Position numbers and translations under genes: made by a program
Notes under the pieces: model-generated
The model's database searches: none
What the model was told of the DNA's origin: nothing
What the model saw: only the letters and a program-made list of their open reading frames with translations
Virus record (IMG/VR): IMGVR_UViG_3300035210_000190
Length of the DNA stretch: 64,000 nucleotides
Source of the DNA: a virus
Lineage: Duplodnaviria; Heunggongvirae; Uroviricota; Caudoviricetes
Strand: one strand, 5' to 3'
Shown here: positions 8,539 through 57,724 of the stretch, one piece after another
Position numbering within the stretch: position 1 is the stretch's first letter
How the letters are laid out: each line of letters begins with the position of its first letter

Positions 8539-9021
8539 ATGTTTTCACTTATTATCTCGATCATTTCTATTGCTCTTATGGCTGCTTTATCGGTTGCAAC
8601 AATTGCTTATGGTTTTTATGCCTATAATAACAATTCTATTTATACAAAAACTGCTTACTTGTTAAACACTGCAAACACTATTGCTACAGCGGCTCTCTTT
8701 GCAAAAAATGAAGGTGTTTCCATGACTGGTATGAGTGTTGATAATGTGAGTAAACTTAAAGATGCCGCTTATTTAACACAAGTCCCTAACTATGAAAATG
8801 TTGACTTTGTAATTGATGCTGACGAATCGTTAGTTAAAATACAAGACTCCGCATTACTTTCACTGGATGTTTGCAAACAAATCATTGCTAATTATGATTC
8901 TCTTAAATTTGATACTGTTTCTACTATTCCTGATGATCCTGTTGATGGTCGTAAATATGGTTGCCATGTTGGTTCAAGTGGTTCTGGTTATTACACGTTT
9001 TATTATCGTATTGATAAATAA
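8539..9021 (+). CDS. pilin-like protein (leaderless MFSLII N-terminus)
   Basis: Hydrophobic N-terminal helix resembling a mature type IV pilin, amphipathic continuation, C-terminal Cys pair; GGAG SD. Confidence 0.6.
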   Translation: MFSLIISIISIALMAALSVATIAYGFYAYNNNSIYTKTAYLLNTANTIATAALFAKNEGVSMTGMSVDNVSKLKDAAYLTQVPNYENVDFVIDADESLVKIQDSALLSLDVCKQIIANYDSLKFDTVSTIPDDPVDGRKYGCHVGSSGSGYYTFYYRIDK

Positions 9022-10839: not shown

Positions 10840-11118
10840 ATGAAAAAGACATTTATTCTCGCACTTGCACTCGCTCTTTCTATGTCGGCAGGTTGTAATG
10901 CAGAAGAAACAAGTAACACTAACACACAAAGTAATAGTTCAGGCAAAAAGACTAGATCTGTTATTTGTTATTCAGGAACTTCAGTACCTTATCAACATGA
11001 TAATGTTATTTTGGTCGCTGGCATTACTGATACTGACATTTCAGCAAGAATTCAAGAAACTGATACTGGCATTAGTAGGCGGGTTCCTGTTTCGCAATGT
11101 TATTTTAAAGACAATTGA
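10840..11118 (+). CDS. putative lipoprotein
   Basis: MKK-hydrophobic-SAGC lipobox-like signal. Confidence 0.75.
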   Translation: MKKTFILALALALSMSAGCNAEETSNTNTQSNSSGKKTRSVICYSGTSVPYQHDNVILVAGITDTDISARIQETDTGISRRVPVSQCYFKDN

Positions 11119-12208: not shown

Positions 12209-12820
12209 TTATAGTGCTGTGCGACAAACTTTACTTATTGTATATGAACCATAGTTTGCGGTTAAAACACCTTTGGTGTATTTGTAAGCTCCAACTACTT
12301 TTTGAGTAGATGCAAAATCGCCACCACTATAAACCAATACGCCATTTGATGTTATATTTAACAATGAATAAGCCGGTGAACCTGCTACCCAAGTTGAGTT
12401 TGGAATATCACATTCTTCTGGTGATTTAGTACCAACCGCAGATCTAGTTATTGTTTGATTACTCAATGTTCTGTTTTCATTTTTTACAGGGCCGACAGGT
12501 CTATATTCATGACTTACATTGTTTTGTTCTCTTTCCTGCACTGTTCTGGTTTGCACTTGTGTACACCCAGTAGCTGATTGCTCAAATGCCACTCCAATAT
12601 TTTTTGTACTTGGGTCAGGCGTCCATGCAGAACAACCTGTTGGCGACCCTACATTTGTCCATTCACTTACTAATGGATCAGAATTTAACCACTTACTTAC
12701 GAACTTGATGTTATCTCCATTAATTTGCTTATCACCGTATATAACTTGGTAACTTGCGTTTGCATTAGCCATTATGCCTAGCAAAGCAAATGGCAAGATC
12801 ATTAAACTTATTTTTTTCAT
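12209..12820 (-). CDS. exported protein with TSP1-like W/C module
   Basis: Signal peptide ending ANA; SEWTN....GCSAW.P...C.Q.Q.RT; tandem paralogue at 12868. Confidence 0.8.
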   Translation of the reverse strand: MKKISLMILPFALLGIMANANASYQVIYGDKQINGDNIKFVSKWLNSDPLVSEWTNVGSPTGCSAWTPDPSTKNIGVAFEQSATGCTQVQTRTVQEREQNNVSHEYRPVGPVKNENRTLSNQTITRSAVGTKSPEECDIPNSTWVAGSPAYSLLNITSNGVLVYSGGDFASTQKVVGAYKYTKGVLTANYGSYTISKVCRTAL

Positions 12821-12867
12821 ATCTTTACTCATTATTATTATTAATTTAAAACTTATTATACATTGTA

Positions 12868-13491
12868 TTATATTGGAACTCTACAAACGCTATGGAATGT
12901 GTAATAACCTAAGTTAGCAGTTTGAGCACCTTTGGTATATTTATATCCATTATAAGTATATTCTGTTAAGTAAATATTTCCAACATCAGGGAATACTTTT
13001 ACATTATCCCACATAACATACATAATACCGAATGAAGGTGTGCCATTAACCCAGCGTGTATTTTGATCTTTCGAACATTCGTCCATTACCTTTGTTCCAT
13101 TTGCAGATCGGGTCATTGTCTGGTTAGTGAGCGTTTGCGTTTCATTTATTGGACTTCCAATAGGTCGGAAGTCTAGTGTATAATCATTTTGCTCTCTGTT
13201 TTGAGTTGTTCTTGTTTGTTCTTGTGTACAGTTATTGGCGGTTTGGTTAAACGTAGTGCCAATAGCTACTGTGCTTGGATCTGGTGCCCAGTTTGAACAA
13301 CCCGTAGCAGAACCAACATTCGTCCAGTCTGATATTGCTGGAGATGCTTTTATCCATTTACCTTTTTTTACAAACGTAATGTTATCGCCATTGATTTGTT
13401 TCTCTCCATATATAGCAGTATATGAAGCATTTGCTGTTAATACAGTGCTGGCTAATAGAGCACTTGCTAACATGAGTATTGAATTTTTCAT
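12868..13491 (-). CDS. exported protein with TSP1-like W/C module
   Basis: Signal peptide ending ANA; SDWTN....GCSNW.P...C.QEQ.RT; C-terminal YKYTKG...VCR. Confidence 0.8.
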   Translation of the reverse strand: MKNSILMLASALLASTVLTANASYTAIYGEKQINGDNITFVKKGKWIKASPAISDWTNVGSATGCSNWAPDPSTVAIGTTFNQTANNCTQEQTRTTQNREQNDYTLDFRPIGSPINETQTLTNQTMTRSANGTKVMDECSKDQNTRWVNGTPSFGIMYVMWDNVKVFPDVGNIYLTEYTYNGYKYTKGAQTANLGYYTFHSVCRVPI

Positions 13492-14432: not shown

Positions 14433-15134
14433 TTATTGTATGTTTATCATGGCAATCAGTAACTTATCTTCTTCTGTTAAATCTTCTAATGTCTTTATTT
14501 CATTTTCTTTAAGGTAGTTAAAATATTGATGCTTGTTGTATTTAATGCCACCCATACTTATATGATCGTTTTCTACTCTAATCCCATTTTTTTCAAGTGA
14601 TGTAAGTTCAAATTCATTATTATATGTATAGCTGTATTCAAAATATAAATCAGTACAACTGTCGAATAGATACAATGCTTTAAATTCATTATCGTTTATA
14701 TATGACTGCTTAATAATTGGCCTATATATTTTTCTGTAACTGTTAAGTTTAGAAACAAAGCCTAATCCAAAAATAAGGATAGCTGTTATATTTAAAACAT
14801 GCCCAACTATACTATGAGTCTCGTAGTTTGAGGCATAGAACATCATTGTGTAGATCAAACCAAGTATTATTAGATATTTAAACCCTTCTGGCATAAATAT
14901 GGTTCTTTTTTTATAGTTCCACTTCGAATAGTTTGTGTTGTAGTAACTTAGTATGCCTACCATCACAAACATAGCGATGATGTCCAATGTAATATAAGTT
15001 GCCAATACTTTTTCTAGTGGTGTATTAAAGTTGTAAATAGCCATAATAGACAACATCAGATAAAATGATGCGACTATTATTCTATTGCTATATATGCCTT
15101 CTTTTAATGTTTTAAAGTAATTTTTCATTTGCAT
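14433..15134 (-). CDS. AT-rich multi-pass membrane protein
   Basis: Four hydrophobic segments in N-terminal half; opposite strand to neighbours. Confidence 0.75.
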   Translation of the reverse strand: MQMKNYFKTLKEGIYSNRIIVASFYLMLSIMAIYNFNTPLEKVLATYITLDIIAMFVMVGILSYYNTNYSKWNYKKRTIFMPEGFKYLIILGLIYTMMFYASNYETHSIVGHVLNITAILIFGLGFVSKLNSYRKIYRPIIKQSYINDNEFKALYLFDSCTDLYFEYSYTYNNEFELTSLEKNGIRVENDHISMGGIKYNKHQYFNYLKENEIKTLEDLTEEDKLLIAMINIQ

Positions 15135-16420: not shown

Positions 16421-17065
16421 ATGGCTCTTACTCCAGCAGAAATCAACATCAAAAATCACATCATCCAATTTCCTGACTTGTTTCAAAGTCGTTTTTCGGT
16501 GTTGAAATTTGTCTTGTTGAGCGATCCAGAATCGTGCTGGGCACAAGATGGCATTATTTACTCTCGGCATATTTCGACCCAAGATGTTACCAATCCTAAA
16601 CTGAACACCAGTCACCTACCGGATGTTCCAGTAGAGTTGTCGGCTCTTTGTGCTGCTCATCTTACGCCGATGCAAATTTATCGTGAGATTGAACTGGCTA
16701 AATATCTGGTTATTGAAAAGCATTTGGATACCATCGTTAAGGTTGAGATGCCTGACGAAAAGGCTATGTCTGCTGCTGATGTTCGTCAAATTAATGAATA
16801 CTCGTTGATCTTCCAAGTGCCTGACAATGTTGAAGACAGTTGGCGTGTAGCAGTTCGTGAAGTCTTGCAGGCAGCGATTATTGCCACCAAGCAGGAATAT
16901 TGCAATCATCGCTGTGATGGCTCTCAGGCTGACCACTGGGTCTACCCATTTGCTTTTACAACCTACCATAAGCTGTTGAGTGAACAGAAACGATTTATGC
17001 CTAAATTAAACATTTCACCAGAAACTGCAGAAAAACTGAAACAACTTCGAGGATTGTTAGGTTAA
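16421..17065 (+). CDS. hypothetical protein
   Basis: GAGG SD, TGGTATAAT promoter. Confidence 0.85.
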   Translation: MALTPAEINIKNHIIQFPDLFQSRFSVLKFVLLSDPESCWAQDGIIYSRHISTQDVTNPKLNTSHLPDVPVELSALCAAHLTPMQIYREIELAKYLVIEKHLDTIVKVEMPDEKAMSAADVRQINEYSLIFQVPDNVEDSWRVAVREVLQAAIIATKQEYCNHRCDGSQADHWVYPFAFTTYHKLLSEQKRFMPKLNISPETAEKLKQLRGLLG

Positions 17066-17149
17066 ATGTAGATAACTGCAATAAATAGCTTGTTCAAAAA
17101 GGCATGTTTATTATATAATGGCTACACACAAACCGATGAGGCAACAACC

Positions 17150-17437
17150 ATGATTACGCCTTCTTATCTTAAACGTCCAGTCGTGATAATGAAAGTTCGT
17201 GCAGCCGTTGTGGAAGCCACGAAAGCGGCTGTTGATACCGATGGTCATGGTCGAGCCTACATCACCGATTATGAAGACAATAACATCATGCGGTTGGATG
17301 TCTTTGTGCCGGGAAATAATGATTTATTCCCTGCTGGTGGTGTGATTGTCTATGGTGAAGGGTCTAAGCAAATTACCAGCATGGTCGAAGAGGCCACTGG
17401 CAAGCCATTCAGTGAGTTGTTGGACTTTTCAGTTTAA
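17150..17437 (+). CDS. hypothetical protein
   Basis: GAGG SD; ends before terminator near 17460. Confidence 0.8.
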   Translation: MITPSYLKRPVVIMKVRAAVVEATKAAVDTDGHGRAYITDYEDNNIMRLDVFVPGNNDLFPAGGVIVYGEGSKQITSMVEEATGKPFSELLDFSV

Positions 17438-17579
17438 TTAAATTCCAACTTATTAACTAAAAAGAGCCTTGATGGCTCTTTTTCTGTTTTTCATTATATT
17501 TATTGTAAATAATCCATAATATAGTTGATTTAATCACATTATCAGTTATAGTTATTCTGAGTATAATAGTGAGTGATTT

Positions 17580-18170
17580 ATGATTTTAAATAAGACTAAA
17601 CAAACAGGTTTCATTGGGCTTGATGTAATTATGGTAATCGGCATTATGTTGTTGATTATTGCTGTTGCATTGACACTTTATGGATCTGCCAGAGATAAAA
17701 GAAATGATCAAGAAGTTAATTATTTAGGTTTTATTTATCATTTAAGTATGTCTAGTGGGAAGGGATTAATTGTTTATAATGAAAAAGAAGTGTCAGAAAT
17801 TCAAAAAACTGTTATTAGATCATTAGATTGCACTAAAAATTATTGTGCTCCACTAAAAACTGATCTTTCAATTGGGGCTTTTATTTCAATTAATTATATT
17901 AATGATGTTGCACATGATATTAAAATTTATTCAACTAATGTAAGTTCTATTTTCTTCAAGAATAACAAAAGCTCTTATTTTTATAGTGATAACTTTCATC
18001 TTGGAAAAAACACACTTGATGAGCATCCTGATTATGCTTATGCATTAAGCATTCAGACAAAGGTAACTCATGAATATTACTTAGCTACTGATTTAAACAA
18101 TCCGGTAAGTGAAGACGTATGTGTTCCATTTGGTTTGGATTGTTATGACGTTTTACATTATAAGCTTTAA
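17580..18170 (+). CDS. prepilin-like protein (class III signal)
   Basis: Basic leader KTKQTG|FIGLD then about 20 hydrophobic residues; two Cys pairs; paralogue of 18890 and 20945. Confidence 0.7.
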   Translation: MILNKTKQTGFIGLDVIMVIGIMLLIIAVALTLYGSARDKRNDQEVNYLGFIYHLSMSSGKGLIVYNEKEVSEIQKTVIRSLDCTKNYCAPLKTDLSIGAFISINYINDVAHDIKIYSTNVSSIFFKNNKSSYFYSDNFHLGKNTLDEHPDYAYALSIQTKVTHEYYLATDLNNPVSEDVCVPFGLDCYDVLHYKL

Positions 18171-18250
18171 AAAAGTTGAAAATGTAGCTTTTTATTGCTA
18201 TAATCTTTAAGTTGTTTATCAAAAATGTTAAACCATTATGAGGATTGTTA

Positions 18251-18484
18251 ATGCGAATTATTCGTATGGGTTATTGCAAGAAAATGCGTTTTGCCTATAT
18301 TCAGGCAAATTTTTGGGAACGAGTTTTCATCGACCTGAAAATCAAAAAACGCAATTCTGGTGTATTTCGAACTCATTCTCTTGGAGCATGGGTCAATAAA
18401 GCACAATACCTGATTGTTCCACGATCAACCAAAGGGCATGGTCTTTTTTCCGATAAGGAAAAAGCTGAGTATTATCGTAATTAA
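18251..18484 (+). CDS. hypothetical basic protein
   Basis: GAGGA SD. Confidence 0.7.
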   Translation: MRIIRMGYCKKMRFAYIQANFWERVFIDLKIKKRNSGVFRTHSLGAWVNKAQYLIVPRSTKGHGLFSDKEKAEYYRN

Positions 18485-18544
18485 TAGTTGCTAAAAAAAC
18501 TCGTTTTTGTTATAATTCAATATCACTTCAAAGAGGTTTTTATC

Positions 18545-18754
18545 ATGAGTATTCACCCCATCGTTAAAGATTTTCTCGCACAGCCTCTGCCTGATTCTGC
18601 CTACAAAGCAGCTTCATTAGATGAACACAAGATGCCTTCTCGGGCTTCGTTTGAACGAGTCAATCGCCTTCTGGCTAGCTTGACGCCAGCTCAAATAGAA
18701 AATGCCCGCAATGCCGCTCACCAGTATCTGTTTGGTAAAACGACTAAACAGTGA
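18545..18754 (+). CDS. hypothetical protein
   Basis: GAGG SD, TGTTATAAT promoter. Confidence 0.75.
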   Translation: MSIHPIVKDFLAQPLPDSAYKAASLDEHKMPSRASFERVNRLLASLTPAQIENARNAAHQYLFGKTTKQ

Positions 18755-18889
18755 ATTGCTGAAAAGTCCATTTACAATTAAAGAGCCTTAATGGCTCTTT
18801 TTTTATTGCTTAAATTCAATACACTTCGTATTTGATTTATCAATGATATTCGTTATATTTTATTACGTCCGTAATATTTGGAGGGGCTT

Positions 18890-19504
18890 ATGAGCACTAA
18901 TAAAATTATTATTATAAAAAGCGAATTTATAATAATTACATCTCTTTTAGTTATGATTATTATCTTGTCTTTTTGTACTTTCTATGAGTATAAGCGAAAA
19001 ACAGTTGTGGAGAATGTAGATTATTTAGCGTTCATCTATCATTTAGGATTATCTACTAATACTGATGGTGTCTATATCATTAACTATGATCAAGCATTAA
19101 ACATTCAAAAGGATGTTATCAAAAATTTAAATTGTTCAAGAGATAAAGACTACTGTTTTACATTTGACGATAAATTGGTTTCAGGTGCTTTTATTGAAAT
19201 CAGTTACATTAATAATAAAGTTGATTATCTTAAAATATATTCTAAAAAGATTGGTTTTATTTTTAATAACAATGTCTCAATTGAACCTTATTCAAAAGGA
19301 TTGTTTCCGCCTGAGTCGATTACTCAAAGTGAAAGCTTTCGCGTTGGAAGACCTAACACTTTGGTTATTGCTGCTATGATGAACCATGTGAAGCATGAAT
19401 ATTACAATGAAAACAATTTGGGAAACCAGATTACAGAAGAAGCTTGTATGCTGGCTAAAAATCAGTGTTTTGATGTTCTTTTTTACGAAAAAAATCCTGC
19501 ATAA
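18890..19504 (+). CDS. pilin-like family protein with degenerate leader
   Basis: Shares YL.FIYHL..S, GAFI.I.YIN and HEYY...C......C.DVL.Y with 17580. Confidence 0.7.
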   Translation: MSTNKIIIIKSEFIIITSLLVMIIILSFCTFYEYKRKTVVENVDYLAFIYHLGLSTNTDGVYIINYDQALNIQKDVIKNLNCSRDKDYCFTFDDKLVSGAFIEISYINNKVDYLKIYSKKIGFIFNNNVSIEPYSKGLFPPESITQSESFRVGRPNTLVIAAMMNHVKHEYYNENNLGNQITEEACMLAKNQCFDVLFYEKNPA

Positions 19505-19577
19505 CACTCATGAAGACGTTGACGGAAAAAGTCTTTTTTGCTATAATACATTCACTAAAAACCAATAGAGATCCAAC

Positions 19578-19994
19578 ATGACTGCGATTATCGTTAGCGA
19601 CAAAATCAAAGTTCCAGAAGGGCAAGAAAACAATCCTTGCGTGGGTTGTGGTGCTTGCTGTGCCTACTTTCGTGCATCCTTTCACTGGATGGAATGCGAG
19701 TCGGCTGGCGGCACCGTCCCTGATGACACCGTTGTTCAAGTCAGTCCACACCATGTCGCCATGAAGGGAACTGACAGCTCCACAACCCCTTACTGCGTTA
19801 ATCTGACTGGCACTATTGGTGTTGATGCGTTTTGTGGTGGTTACGCGACTCGTTCTTCCACTTGCCGTGATGGCTTTCCAGCTTCATATGAAGATGGTGA
19901 AAAAAATGAGCGGTGTGATAAAGCTCGGGCAAAACACGGACTTCGTGAGTTGACACCAGAAGATTGGGCTTGGAAAAACGCAGTAACAGCTTAA
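19578..19994 (+). CDS. YkgJ-family cysteine-cluster protein
   Basis: NPCVGCGACCAYFRASFHW.E, MKGT, C..L.G.IG...C..Y..R.S.CR, CDKARAKHGL. Confidence 0.85.
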   Translation: MTAIIVSDKIKVPEGQENNPCVGCGACCAYFRASFHWMECESAGGTVPDDTVVQVSPHHVAMKGTDSSTTPYCVNLTGTIGVDAFCGGYATRSSTCRDGFPASYEDGEKNERCDKARAKHGLRELTPEDWAWKNAVTA

Positions 19995-20087
19995 TAATTT
20001 TAAATCAATCAGGGGCTTCGGCCCCTTTTTTGTTGTTTTTGATTGTTCAAAGTGGTATAATGAGTTATCAAAACGAGGATAAGCCCG

Positions 20088-20456
20088 ATGAAAACTTTGA
20101 ATGCCGAAACCGTCAAAATCCAGTTGAACGCTTGTGGTGTTAAGGTTAATGATATTTCGAGTGATTTGAAGAAAATCGTTGAGGCCACCGTTTCATCCAG
20201 CCAAGAATCAGCATTCATTGAAGCGAAGGTTAACGCCATTCGCCTCGATTTGGCAGCAAAAGATTCCGACTTTAACCCAAAAGACATTGTTTTTTCCTTC
20301 TCCCCATTGCCACGTTCGGTGATCGTTTACAAAAATCAGCCATTCATTGTTGATTGCTCTCATAAAAATGGGCTGTTCTTGATTTCGATGTGTGGCGAAG
20401 AGTATGAAAATGCTCCTGTTGCAGAATACCCAGTTATTGGCACAATTACTATCTAA
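20088..20456 (+). CDS. hypothetical protein
   Basis: GAGGA SD after ATCAAAACGA leader. Confidence 0.8.
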   Translation: MKTLNAETVKIQLNACGVKVNDISSDLKKIVEATVSSSQESAFIEAKVNAIRLDLAAKDSDFNPKDIVFSFSPLPRSVIVYKNQPFIVDCSHKNGLFLISMCGEEYENAPVAEYPVIGTITI

Positions 20457-20465
20457 GAGGTTGGT

Positions 20466-20828
20466 ATGACGATTAAAGAAATGGATGCGGAAAACAAACG
20501 TTTTTGTTTTTGGTTTTTCGGTGTCGCCATCGTAGTTATTTTGCTTTTTACCTATTTGTCTGTTGCATATAGCTACAATAAAACAGGCGTTCAATCTGAA
20601 GTTTTTCAAAAAGAAGTTCCTATTGCTGTTAATGAGAATGGGTTTTTCTTTCAAGTTGAACTTCTCGATAAGTCTTTTAATCAACGTCTTCGGTGTGAGC
20701 GTGAACCCACTAAAAAAACCGCTTTGATTTCTTATCGAATTGTTGAAGTCAGAACAATTACTGGTAAATATAAAATGGTCCCCGATGTTGATGTGACGGC
20801 AAGCTGTAAAAGCCTTCTTGCTGTTTAA
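20466..20828 (+). CDS. membrane-anchored protein
   Basis: N-terminal TM helix, Cys pair in soluble part; GAGG SD. Confidence 0.75.
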   Translation: MTIKEMDAENKRFCFWFFGVAIVVILLFTYLSVAYSYNKTGVQSEVFQKEVPIAVNENGFFFQVELLDKSFNQRLRCEREPTKKTALISYRIVEVRTITGKYKMVPDVDVTASCKSLLAV

Positions 20829-20944
20829 TCGTTAACTTTATTCATTAAACCTCCTTCGTGGAGGTTTTTTATTTGCTTTGTTTATATTATTTGTTATAGT
20901 TTTTAATGAAGTTAGAACTTCAACAATAACTATAAGGTATAGCG

Positions 20945-21619
20945 ATGAATATAAAAAAAATAAACAAGCTGGCTGGTGGTGTTTCTTTGCTTGAACCACT
21001 TATGGTGATTGCTCTCTTTGCAATGATGATTATTATGGCAATAATTTACTACAGTGCTTCAACTAAAAGGTTTAATCCAGATTTTATGGATATTATAAGT
21101 TTTGCTAATAATTTAAACTCGTTACAATCAGATAAAGAAGTCATTACTTTAAAGTATAATGAAATAACGCCTTTTCAAAAAGATTTGTTTAGTAAAATAG
21201 ATTGTGTTCATTCCATATGTAAGCCTATTGACTTACAAAAATATCCGCCTAATACTTATTTAAGAATTTATTATAAAGATTCCAAGTTTGATTCTTTTTA
21301 TCTGTACACAAAAAAGAACAGTTCTATTTTTAACTTTAATACAACAGTTTATAATGATTGGGTTTCAAACATCTCTTTTGATCGATTTAAAGAAGAAGAA
21401 ATTACTTTGATTAAACGAGAGAAAAAAAGATACCCAGATATGAATCCTTTTATTACTTATTTATCAAATACATTTGATAATGTCTCTATTTATAATATCT
21501 CTGATAATGATCAATCTCTTGTAAAAGATGATAATTGTCCAGAAGCAAACTGCACCAGTGTGTTAGCGTATAAAAACAATCCAATCGTACAACTTGCAGA
21601 CAACAAAAAAGCCCTTTGA
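20945..21619 (+). CDS. prepilin-like protein (class III signal, Glu+5)
   Basis: KKINKLAGG|VSLLE followed by hydrophobic helix; two Cys pairs placed as in 17580 and 18890. Confidence 0.75.
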   Translation: MNIKKINKLAGGVSLLEPLMVIALFAMMIIMAIIYYSASTKRFNPDFMDIISFANNLNSLQSDKEVITLKYNEITPFQKDLFSKIDCVHSICKPIDLQKYPPNTYLRIYYKDSKFDSFYLYTKKNSSIFNFNTTVYNDWVSNISFDRFKEEEITLIKREKKRYPDMNPFITYLSNTFDNVSIYNISDNDQSLVKDDNCPEANCTSVLAYKNNPIVQLADNKKAL

Positions 21620-21648
21620 GGGCTTTTATTCATTCATTTCGGAAGCGA

Positions 21649-22260
21649 TCAAAGCTTCCCGGTATATTTCAACAACAACGTGCTCCTAATCCCTAGAATA
21701 GCCTCATTACAAGCAATCTGCCCTATTTCAATCATGTGCATGGCTTCTTCACTGGTAAACACACCAACTTCGATATCTTCGTCATAAATCCCATAGGCTT
21801 TTGACTGGTCGATATCACTGGCACTGAACGCACACAGGAAGTGGTGGTGTTTTTCACTTGATGATCCAGCACTGGTATACCCGGAGCCTAGATCGATAAG
21901 ATTGCTTTCGTTGACAATCACACCCGCTTCTTCGTTGGCTTCTTTGGCTGCAGTTTGTCGAGGTGTTTCTCTGATACCATTATTGATGTCAATATGACCG
22001 GCTACCACACTCCACAGGTATGGGTTAGTATCATATTCGTTTATGGCAGCACCCGGCCTAAACTGACGGATTAGCAGAAAGGAATCTTTATCCTTGTCAT
22101 ACAGCGTTAGGCAGACGGCATCCGCCTTTTTGACAATCAGAAAATTCAACTCACCACGATCACCTTTGAACTTTTCAAATTCAAAATGGCGAAATCCCAC
22201 TTGCATGAAGGGATAATTGATTTCAATCTTTTCGTTTAGTAATTTATAGGGTCTGTTCAT
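21649..22260 (-). CDS. Nudix hydrolase, ADP-ribose pyrophosphatase (NudF)-like
   Basis: AV..TLYD.....LLIRQFRPG, Nudix box AG.ID...ETP..TA.KEA.EEAG, SAGSSSEK, E.EDIEV. Confidence 0.85.
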   Translation of the reverse strand: MNRPYKLLNEKIEINYPFMQVGFRHFEFEKFKGDRGELNFLIVKKADAVCLTLYDKDKDSFLLIRQFRPGAAINEYDTNPYLWSVVAGHIDINNGIRETPRQTAAKEANEEAGVIVNESNLIDLGSGYTSAGSSSEKHHHFLCAFSASDIDQSKAYGIYDEDIEVGVFTSEEAMHMIEIGQIACNEAILGIRSTLLLKYTGKL

Positions 22261-22421
22261 ATTAGTCTCCATTTCTTGCAATGTTAACACAAAATTAGTG
22301 AAAAATACATGAGTTTCAGTTGTTTTACAAAAAAAACTCTAAAATATTAATCACAAATTAATGTTGTCAAAAACATGTTTTTTTGATAAAATACCCACAC
22401 ATTCAAAGAACGAGGCACATC

Positions 22422-56692: not shown

Positions 56693-57724
56693 ATGATACT
56701 CATTCCTGAAAACTTGAATTCAAAAGGTTTGACCCGACTGACATCCAATGTCCGTTCATTGATTGGACGTGTTAAACGCTATTACCCAAACCTCACGTTT
56801 GATATTCTTGAAAAGGAAGTCATTGCACGTCTTAAAACCAATCAGATTAATGAACATTCCTACTGTGAATTGACCGGATTGAAATTTAACGATATGGGAA
56901 CTGTGTTTCTCATTCCCGTTAACCCTTATACCGCCGATATTGTTTCTATTAATCAAGTGCTAATTGTTCATCAACAAACCGTTAACTTTTGGTTTGAACT
57001 TCATAAAATCATGAAAGAATCACCCGATTTTATAGCGGTAGGCGATACAAAGGCTCAACTCAGGTTGATTCACGACACCCTTCGTGCTAAATCCAAGACC
57101 ACCAGCCTGTCACCAGAAGTCGTTGATCTGTCTTTGCTGATTGAACGTTCTTCGCAGACGCCTGAGCGTATCATTAATCTTAAAAATCGGTTGGCTGACC
57201 CTTTGCAACCCCGTCCGGTACTTCCAGTTTTTAAAGCGTCGGATTTTGTTCGTAAAGCATCGTTCTATTCAGACCGGGCCATTCTTCGCAAAATTGAAAT
57301 GTGCAAAGAGCGTTCCAAAAGCAAGGGTTTTACCAGCGATCTCACTTTTGAGAACTCTAAGCACCTGTTTAACGTCACTCACTGTCAATTGACTGGTTTG
57401 CCGTTAGTTAAAGCCACTAAAACACAGGAAGACAATCCATTTGGTTTCTCGATTGACCGGATCAATCGTTTCGAAGGTTATAATGTATCCAATCTGTTGA
57501 TTGTGGCTCATGAAGTCAATAAGATAAAATCCAAACTGGAATGGTCGAATTACACAGAAAGTGTTGAGAACCTTCGTGAGATCTTGACGCAAGCCAAAGA
57601 AATGATGTTGAAGCGTCACGCCCACGACAATCTGCATAATCGCAAGCAGCCTTTGCCGATTGACACCATTATCGAAAACTATCTTGCAAAAGATGAGAAC
57701 CATAAAAAGTTCATTTTCGGCTAA
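56693..57724 (+). CDS. protein with HNH-like (His-Me finger) nuclease domain and a degenerate N-terminal repeat
   Basis: C.LTGLP...SIDRI....GY..SNL.IV...VN..K near C-terminus; YCELTGL near N-terminus. Confidence 0.65.
   Translation: MILIPENLNSKGLTRLTSNVRSLIGRVKRYYPNLTFDILEKEVIARLKTNQINEHSYCELTGLKFNDMGTVFLIPVNPYTADIVSINQVLIVHQQTVNFWFELHKIMKESPDFIAVGDTKAQLRLIHDTLRAKSKTTSLSPEVVDLSLLIERSSQTPERIINLKNRLADPLQPRPVLPVFKASDFVRKASFYSDRAILRKIEMCKERSKSKGFTSDLTFENSKHLFNVTHCQLTGLPLVKATKTQEDNPFGFSIDRINRFEGYNVSNLLIVAHEVNKIKSKLEWSNYTESVENLREILTQAKEMMLKRHAHDNLHNRKQPLPIDTIIENYLAKDENHKKFIFG

What the first reader, a model, noticed from the sequence alone, without database searches (positions are those of the whole stretch)
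17580..21619. Three paralogous prepilin-like genes interleaved with unrelated cassettes
Seen: 17580 (KQTG|FIGLD), 20945 (LAGG|VSLLE) and 18890 (degenerate leader) have one N-terminal hydrophobic helix and two Cys pairs at matching positions. 17580 and 18890 also share YL.FIYHL..S and HEYY, and follow near-identical terminators. No pilus ATPase, platform protein or secretin gene is present in the window. Known: G|(F/V)xxxE is the prepilin-peptidase signature of type IV pilins and T2SS pseudopilins, and several phages block type IV pili for superinfection exclusion. Inference: a decoy (pseudo)pilin set that poisons or re-tips host pili/T2SS, which would be a different route from small ATPase inhibitors.
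Basis: partly seen in the sequence, partly recalled or inferred. Interest (0 to 1): 0.7.

Follow-up and report, generated by a model that had tools for sequence, protein, structure and literature searches.

The report
Divergent pilin-like trio in giant phage
Three fast-evolving, AT-rich sister genes of a giant uncultured phage-like element encode membrane-anchored proteins whose front end and predicted fold weakly but consistently resemble bacterial type IV pilus subunits, so they probably slip into the host's pilus or secretion machinery, a trick already shown for other phages.

Summary
17580-18170 (A), 18890-19504 (B) and 20945-21619 (C) are real paralogs (BLASTP E 4e-27 to 1e-8). Each has one N-terminal hydrophobic helix and four invariant Cys.

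They belong to a tiny family: 14 clusters among 1.84 billion proteins. It has no Pfam, PHROG, IMG/VR or GenBank-phage match.

Evidence that they are pilin-like is weak but convergent:
- A family profile hits only three PDB sequences, all type IV pilins (E 0.013-0.09). The alignment runs through leader, Gly-1, acidic +5 and the helix.
- Two separate AlphaFold models both put the pilin domain of type IVb minor pilins TcpB/CofB first (Z 4.9-5.6).
- Curated prepilin models are not matched.
- A has Asp at +5, C probably Glu at +6, and B lacks the Gly.

New here:
- The family has two deep clades, and every related locus keeps at least one of each.
- The three genes share a promoter type and have 28% GC, against 38.5% for the window.
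- They evolve much faster than their conserved neighbours.

Most likely they are phage-made pilin mimics that use host machinery, as shown for P-FimU (Cell Rep 2026), so the idea is not new. Function is untested, and the rest of the genome could not be searched. This scan already reported the same family on other DNA (e1-5386940).

The parts
17459..17483 (+). Intrinsic terminator ahead of gene A; near-identical twin of the one at 18780
17525..17552 (+). Promoter-like site TTGATT-16-TATAGT, of the type shared by all three genes
   Evidence: consensus match only
17580..18170 (+). Paralog A, 196 aa, clade I. Leader ends in a conserved Gly10, then FIGLD (Asp at +5), a hydrophobic helix and 4 Cys. 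GC 28.4%
18245..18754 (+). Two small interleaved genes (79 and 88 aa) with a strong promoter of their own at 18176-18204. Absent together with A in relative L015
18780..18800 (+). Intrinsic terminator ahead of gene B, twin of 17459-17483
18832..18859 (+). Promoter-like site TTGATT-16-TATATT
18890..19504 (+). Paralog B, 204 aa, clade I. Leader lacks the Gly (not cleavable by a prepilin peptidase) but keeps the aligned Glu and the 4 Cys. GC 28.1%
19578..19994 (+). Interleaved conserved gene, CxxCxxCC domain (PF03692), 85-96% identical in relatives. Syntenic context; no functional link shown
20088..20828 (+). Interleaved genes of 122 aa (conserved) and 120 aa (single transmembrane helix, hypervariable, replaced in a relative). 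Syntenic context
20847..20867 (+). Intrinsic terminator ahead of gene C
20873..20900 (+). Promoter-like site TTGCTT-16-TATAGT, read from the sequence
20945..21619 (+). Paralog C, 224 aa, clade II. Conserved Gly11, then G-VSLLEP (Glu at +6 if cut after Gly11), a hydrophobic helix and 4 Cys. GC 27.7%
21607..21627 (.). Hairpin with T-runs at the convergent ends of gene C and the NUDIX gene (21649-22290, minus strand)

Best explanation
The three genes encode a phage-specific family of type IV pilin-like proteins. Each is made as an inner-membrane protein with a short basic cytoplasmic leader, one hydrophobic helix and a disulfide-bonded periplasmic head of about 160-190 residues. That head resembles the pilin domain of type IVb minor pilins (TcpB/CofB). 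A and C carry the conserved Gly that a host prepilin peptidase needs. They are inferred to be cut by it and to enter the host's type IV filament machinery (pilus or T2SS pseudopilus), which they alter or jam. B has lost the Gly and would stay anchored in the membrane. The most likely benefit is to exclude rival phages that use the filament, as shown for P-FimU. Shown here: paralogy, membrane-anchor topology features, conserved Gly and acidic residue, conserved Cys, a two-clade structure, conserved synteny, fast evolution, low GC and a shared promoter type. Inferred: processing, incorporation into a host filament, and the exclusion phenotype.
For: Paralogs with four invariant Cys. A family profile against 177,635 PDB sequences hits only three, all type IV pilins (E 0.013, 0.03, 0.09), aligned from Met1 through Gly-1, the acidic residue, the helix and a Tyr. 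Gly11 is at least 90% conserved among 34 members that share only 20-35% identity, and an acidic residue follows at +5 or +6 in nearly all of them. The weak NCBIfam hits of single members are mostly pilin types: ComGD, prepilin-type proteins, XpsH, GspH. Model of A: pLDDT 68.6, helix 14-56 plus a sheet. Model of C: pLDDT 80.3. In an all-against-48,161-chain structure search, A is closest to TcpB (Z 5.1, 120 aa). C is closest to CofB (Z 5.0, 150 aa) and TcpB (Z 4.9, 132 aa), and the next rows are single helices at 3.8. On a second look TcpB scores Z 5.6 over 148 aa and the next row 3.5. Only A and C in the whole window fit a class III signal pattern. Each gene has its own promoter-like site of one shared type. 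GC is 27.7-28.4% against 38.5% for the window. Against relative L015, C is 79% and B 87% identical while the flanking CxxC, 122-aa and NUDIX genes are 96-98%; against L007 the figures are 22-49% versus 77-92%. Copy number varies from 2 to 3 per locus, but every locus keeps one clade I and one clade II member. Precedent: P-FimU and phage PilA-like genes (PMC12952977) and archaeal virus SNJ2 pilins that hijack host machinery (PMC12426801).
Against: No curated prepilin model (Pfam N_methyl, NCBIfam prepilin models) reaches threshold. Foldseek gives no match at E<=0.001, and GNAT-type folds score alongside TcpB. Z of 5-5.6 is below the best Z that unrelated models typically reach in this tool (notes). 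The profile of clade II alone hits PilA only at E about 1. The canonical Glu+5 is replaced by Asp in A and is probably shifted to +6 in C. B has no Gly-1. The host is unknown, so whether a host filament system is present is not shown. No experiment and no expression data exist.
Confidence: 0.45

Rival explanations
1. They are single-pass inner-membrane proteins with a periplasmic domain of a new fold, unrelated to pili. They act on the envelope in another way, for example by blocking DNA injection like T4 Imm/Sp or by timing lysis like T4 holin T and antiholin RI. The pilin-like look of the N-terminus would be convergence of a signal anchor.
For: All pilin signals are below curated thresholds. 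Structural Z values are modest. B lacks the Gly yet is conserved (87% in L015), so cleavage is not essential for at least one paralog. The size and topology (about 200 aa, N-in, one helix, periplasmic Cys) match T4 holin T from my own knowledge.
Against: This reading does not explain a Gly that is at least 90% conserved at a fixed distance before a conserved acidic residue at the start of the helix, across 20-35% identical proteins. It does not explain why the only PDB sequence hits are pilins, or why two separately built models both rank TcpB/CofB first. There is no Pfam hit to holin T or any other family.
Confidence: 0.3
2. They are subunits of a type IV filament system (type IVb pilus, Tad or T2SS-like) that the giant element itself encodes elsewhere in its genome of at least 0.68-0.83 Mb.
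For: Relatives lie on contigs of 319 kb, 678 kb and 835 kb, and even 1.85-1.92 Mb, which leaves room for such an operon. Type IVb systems are typically carried on mobile elements (own knowledge). The best fold matches are type IVb minor pilins.
Against: No assembly gene lies in this 64 kb window or in the 20 kb loci of relatives. The genes are scattered monocistronic cassettes and not part of a pilus operon. The notes on the three scanned windows of this genome mention no such machinery. The rest of the genome could not be searched.
Confidence: 0.1
3. The N-terminus is an ordinary Sec signal peptide cut by signal peptidase I, which releases soluble periplasmic proteins.
For: A has GSA and C has SAS just after the helix, and these could pass as small-x-small cleavage sites.
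Against: The hydrophobic stretch is about 21-25 residues, long for a Sec signal. The small residues are not conserved in orthologs, where Ile, Leu or Val occupy the would-be -1 position. B has no such site.
Confidence: 0.07

Closest known systems
P-FimU, prophage-encoded FimU-like minor pilins of F10-like Pseudomonas aeruginosa phages (Sztanko et al., Cell Rep 2026, PMC12952977)
   Same: A phage-encoded pilin-type protein on its own promoter, with no assembly genes beside it. The family is highly diverse, as expected under phage-versus-phage competition. The proposed use of host peptidase and machinery is the same.
   Different: P-FimU is recognisably similar to host FimU, whereas this family matches no pilin family by sequence. 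Here there are 2-3 paralogs from two deep clades per genome. The element looks like a giant, probably virulent phage and not a temperate one. The acidic residue is non-canonical and one paralog is uncleavable. Function here is untested.
Domain 1 (pilin domain) of type IVb minor pilins TcpB (V. cholerae, 7w63) and CofB (ETEC, 4qs4)
   Same: These are the best structural matches of both models (Z 4.9-5.6 over 120-150 residues). They share a long N-terminal helix packed on a sheet, and a leader of intermediate length.
   Different: TcpB and CofB are 390-500 residues with extra beta-repeat and lectin-like domains, and they are encoded inside pilus operons. The phage proteins are 196-224 residues, pilin domain only. 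Sequence identity is 6-13%.
PilA-like and truncated PilA proteins of non-temperate phages (noted in PMC12952977, section read)
   Same: Pilin-type genes in virulent phages, presumed to be made early in infection so that infected cells resist further adsorption.
   Different: Those proteins are detectable by BLAST with host PilA. This family is not detectable that way, and it carries a full-size, disulfide-bonded head.
SNJ2 provirus pilins PilA1/PilA2 of Natrinema (PMC12426801)
   Same: Virus-encoded type IV pilins, present as paralogs, that use the host secretion machinery (abstract).
   Different: That is an archaeal system in which the viral pilins form the dominant filaments and serve as the receptor for another virus. 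Here the promoters, terminators and ribosome-binding sites are bacterial, and the role is unknown.
Small phage inhibitors of pilus assembly, such as Zip, which acts through PilZ (bioRxiv 10.1101/2024.03.05.583538, abstract), and Tip and Aqs1, which act on PilB (own knowledge)
   Same: The same presumed goal: change pilus function to keep rival phages out.
   Different: Those are cytoplasmic binders of assembly factors. The proteins here are exported, pilin-shaped subunits.

Membership tests
Type IV pilin / class III signal peptide proteins | Short basic leader ending in Gly at -1 | tested here: met
   A has KQTG and C has KLAG. The Gly is at least 90% conserved in 34 family members. It is not met by paralog B, which has no Gly.
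Type IV pilin / class III signal peptide proteins | Glu at +5 of the mature protein | tested here: inconclusive
   Clade I has Asp at +5. Clade II has Glu at +6 if cut after the conserved Gly, or +5 only if cut after a variable G/D/S. B keeps an aligned Glu.
Type IV pilin / class III signal peptide proteins | About 20 hydrophobic residues right after the cleavage site, forming the first half of a long helix | tested here: met
   Sequence. Model helices run 14-56 in A, and 16-40 plus 45-57 in C.
Type IV pilin / class III signal peptide proteins | Match to a curated prepilin N-terminal model (Pfam PF07963, NCBIfam prepilin models) at threshold | tested here: not met
   No Pfam hit at E<=1. NCBIfam pilin-type hits only at E 0.03-0.15, each in a single member. 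A family profile does hit PDB pilins at E 0.013-0.09.
Type IV pilin / class III signal peptide proteins | Pilin fold: the helix packed on an antiparallel sheet, with a disulfide-bonded C-terminal region | tested here: inconclusive
   TcpB/CofB are the top matches for both models, but at Z 4.9-5.6. Foldseek is not significant. A conserved Cys pair lies near the C-terminus.
Type IV pilin / class III signal peptide proteins | Cleavage and N-methylation by a prepilin peptidase, and assembly by a type IV filament machine | not testable with these tools
   Needs expression in a strain with and without the peptidase. The host is unknown.
Type IVb minor pilins (TcpB/CofB type) | Pilin domain followed by additional C-terminal domains, encoded in a pilus operon | tested here: not met
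   The proteins are 196-224 aa, pilin-domain size only. No member of the family exceeds 226 aa in a search without length limits. There are no pilus genes nearby.
P-FimU / GspH-FimU-like phage minor pilins | Sequence similarity to FimU/GspH | tested here: not met
   GspH and XpsH models are hit only at E 0.11-0.15, by one member each. No Pfam family is matched.
P-FimU / GspH-FimU-like phage minor pilins | Incorporation into the host pilus and a block of tip-binding phages | not testable with these tools
   Experimental criterion (PMC12952977).

The most novel reading that the evidence does not exclude
The conserved pairing of one clade I and one clade II member reflects a two-part, phage-made cap or priming complex that replaces the tip of a host type IV filament. 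The Gly-less paralog B would be an uncleavable membrane-resident form that traps the prepilin peptidase or the assembly platform. This would be a multi-subunit takeover of a host filament by a giant phage, going beyond the single-subunit swap known for P-FimU.
Probability: 0.1. Interest if true: 0.7.

Novelty: new variant of a known kind. Interest (0 to 1): 0.45.

Why it matters
Phage-made pilus subunits have only just been shown to work as a defence against rival phages, and only for prophage proteins that clearly resemble a host minor pilin. This family would extend the idea in three ways: to giant, probably virulent phages of peat and wastewater bacteria; to a type IVb-like pilin shape that sequence searches cannot see; and to sets of two or three diverged subunits kept together. 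It also gives a concrete, cheap test (cleavage by a prepilin peptidase, presence in sheared pili) for a protein family that is otherwise pure 'hypothetical'. If the test fails, the family is still a conserved, fast-evolving envelope module of giant phages.

Tried and rejected
- **Cultured and catalogued phages.** Megablast of 17000-22000 and tblastn of A against GenBank phages found no match. IMG/VR scans with C and with the A alignment found no relative. The family alignment was too diverse for that tool.
- **PHROGs.** No hit for the three proteins.
- **Whole-genome search for pilus machinery.** Not possible. No genome is held for the window, and the large metagenome records are not held either.
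- **Host inference from the IS605-type TnpB at 498-1649.** No relative in 185,579 species genomes.
- **Nearest cultured phages, via the NUDIX and CxxCxxCC proteins.** Only distant hits at 27-41% identity.
- **Foldseek against the PDB.** Nothing at E<=0.001 for either model.
- **ESM Atlas.** Shape search gave TM of at most 0.34, with one weak row where 36% of members carry N_methyl. Feature search gave archaeal hypotheticals at 0.85, a lead only.
- **Clade II profile alone against the PDB.** PilA at E about 1, not significant.
- **Complex prediction of the soluble parts of A and C.** No verdict, score 0.00, controls not run.
- **Expression.** No holder on record as RNA was listed. Two wastewater runs that may be RNA hold only the conserved neighbour genes at 80% likeness.
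- **The hydrophobic-start protein at 8539-9021.** Unrelated to this family (hhalign probability 0.6%), with no PDB or Pfam hit.
Full report
**What is there.** The window is a run of small, mostly plus-strand genes, each with its own promoter-like site and terminator. It has two tRNA-Leu genes, an IS605-type TnpB gene, and almost no Pfam matches. A few PHROG hits are present. Earlier notes on the same genome call it a very large uncultured phage-like element. The DNA occurs in peat metagenomes, with relatives in wastewater and other samples. No whole genome is held.

**The three genes.**
- A is 17580-18170 (196 aa), B is 18890-19504 (204 aa) and C is 20945-21619 (224 aa). B starts at the ATG behind a GGAGG site.
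- They are true paralogs: A-B E=4e-27, A-C 3e-10, B-C 1e-8.
- Near-identical terminators precede A and B.
- All three have the same promoter-like arrangement, TTG(A/C)TT-16-TATA(G/T)T. The interleaved cassettes instead have near-consensus extended -10 promoters.
- The three genes have 27.7-28.4% GC, against 38.5% for the window and 36-50% for their neighbours.

**The family.**
- A profile search of 1.84 billion cluster representatives, with no length limit, finds only 14 clusters. All are 81-226 aa.
- Word-based searches add orthologs at 51-86% identity from metagenomes only.
- There is nothing in GenBank phages or IMG/VR and no Pfam or PHROG family.
- A tree of 36 distinct members shows two deep clades (support 97/91). 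Clade I holds A and B types, clade II holds C types.
- Every related locus with enough context keeps at least one of each: the window has I, I, II; L015 has I, II; L010 and L011 have I, II; L013 has I, II, II; L007 has I, II, II.
- The order of the genes around them is conserved: a small gene, a CxxCxxCC protein (PF03692), a 122-aa protein, a roughly 120-aa transmembrane protein, and in the closer relatives (L007, L015) a convergent NUDIX gene.
- In L015 the A cassette and its two small followers are missing between the sites of the twin terminators. One contig of a wastewater run shows a similar joint.

**Is it pilin-like? Evidence for.**
1. A and C have short Lys-rich leaders that end in Gly. 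This is followed by a hydrophobic residue, an acidic residue four or five places on, and about 21-25 hydrophobic residues. Across 34 members that share only 20-35% identity, the Gly is at least 90% conserved and the acidic residue is nearly always present.
2. A relaxed pattern for this signal, run on all ORFs of 70 aa or more on both strands of the window, picks out only A and C.
3. A family profile searched against all 177,635 distinct PDB sequences hits three, all type IV pilins (two geopilins and a PilA; E 0.013, 0.03, 0.09). The alignment runs from Met1 through the Gly, the acidic residue, the helix and a Tyr.
4. The weak NCBIfam hits of single members are mostly pilin types.
5. Two models built from different paralogs and alignments give a long N-terminal helix followed by a mixed helix and sheet head. 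The model of A has pLDDT 68.6 and the model of C 80.3.
6. An exhaustive structural comparison with 48,161 PDB representatives puts TcpB first for A (Z 5.1, 120 aa). For C it puts CofB and TcpB first (Z 5.0 over 150 aa and 4.9 over 132 aa), and the next rows are bare helices at 3.8. A second look gives TcpB Z 5.6 over 148 aa against 3.5 for the next row.

**Is it pilin-like? Evidence against.**
- No curated prepilin model is reached.
- Foldseek is not significant, and GNAT-like folds score beside TcpB.
- Z values near 5 are within what unrelated models can reach.
- The clade II profile alone is not significant against the PDB.
- Clade I has Asp, not Glu, at +5.
- In clade II the residue before VSLLE is G, D or S, so the conserved Gly one place earlier is the likely -1. 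The Glu then falls at +6.
- B and its orthologs have no Gly at all.

My reading is that the N-terminus is a diverged class III signal and the head a diverged type IVb-like pilin domain, at about 60% confidence.

**How it probably works.**
- The Lys-rich leader, the single helix and the conserved Cys pairs point to an N-in membrane protein with a disulfide-bonded periplasmic head. This is inferred from the sequence.
- Each gene has its own modest promoter, the set has no assembly genes nearby, and the genes are AT-rich.
- They evolve far faster than the cytoplasmic genes they alternate with. Against L015, C is 79% and B 87% identical, versus 96-98% for the CxxC, 122-aa and NUDIX genes. Against L007 the figures are 22-49% versus 77-92%.
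- Copy number changes between relatives.
- These are the traits of accessory genes in an arms race at the cell surface.
- The published precedent is P-FimU. These prophage minor pilins enter the Pseudomonas pilus tip, keep it working and block tip-binding phages. The same paper notes PilA-like genes in virulent phages (PMC12952977).
- An archaeal provirus also supplies pilins to host machinery (PMC12426801).
- The best explanation is therefore that A and C are cut by the host prepilin peptidase and enter or jam a host type IV filament, while B stays in the membrane. Processing, incorporation and phenotype are all inferred.

**Rivals.**
- Envelope proteins unrelated to pili, acting in superinfection exclusion or lysis timing (0.3).
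- Subunits of a filament system encoded elsewhere in the giant genome (0.1). This could not be tested because the large records are not searchable.
- Ordinary Sec signals (0.07). This is disfavoured by the length of the helix and by the non-conserved would-be cleavage sites.

**Novelty.** What is new is the family itself, which is invisible to sequence searches. Also new are its type IVb-like shape, the two-clade set kept together, the uncleavable member, and its home in giant phage-like elements. This scan has already reported the same family on other DNA and reached the same closest match (e1-5386940). My analysis reached it independently and adds the clade structure, the rate comparison, the GC contrast, the shared promoter and the +6 correction.

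Noticed in passing
window 20466-20828: The 120-aa single-helix membrane protein between the pilin-like genes is hypervariable. It is 39% identical in L015, where its neighbours are 96-98% identical. In a close relative (run X9) it is replaced by 411 other bases between 20457 and 20850.
   Followed up: partly
window 14433-15134 (minus strand): A 233-aa multi-helix membrane protein with the same very low GC (28.2%) as the pilin-like genes. It has no Pfam hit and is conserved at 50-84% identity in relatives.
   Followed up: partly
window 12209-12832 and 12868-13491 (minus strand): Two adjacent paralogous 207-aa proteins with Sec-type signal peptides (ending ANA|SY) and several Cys. No Pfam family. 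They could be exported partners or cargo.
   Followed up: no
window 10840-11118: A 92-aa protein with a lipoprotein-type signal (lipobox ...SAGC). Only a weak DUF4148 hit.
   Followed up: no
window 8539-9021: A 160-aa protein that starts directly with a hydrophobic helix, flagged elsewhere as a leaderless pilin-like protein. It is unrelated to this family (hhalign probability 0.6%) and has no PDB-sequence or Pfam hit.
   Followed up: partly
relatives: L015 (JGI contig of 1,851,360 bp), cluster member P0053 (contig of 1,917,244 bp), L013 (677,834 bp): The family sits on contigs far longer than any described phage genome. I did not examine whether these are concatemer or chimeric assemblies, or a truly larger replicon.
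   Followed up: no
protein P0012 (223 aa, on a 1,746-bp contig): A clade I, A-type protein that carries a second copy of the C-terminal Cys-loop module, of the B type, appended to its end. This suggests recombination between paralogs.
   Followed up: no
window 19578-19994: The CxxCxxCC (PF03692) protein is the most conserved gene of the module (85-96% identity). From my own knowledge, this Pfam family includes the flagellin lysine methylase FliB. No link to the pilin-like genes is shown.
   Followed up: no
window 56693-57724: A 343-aa protein with PHROG hits to HNH endonuclease families and, more weakly, to Srd-like anti-sigma and sigma70-decoy families.
   Followed up: no
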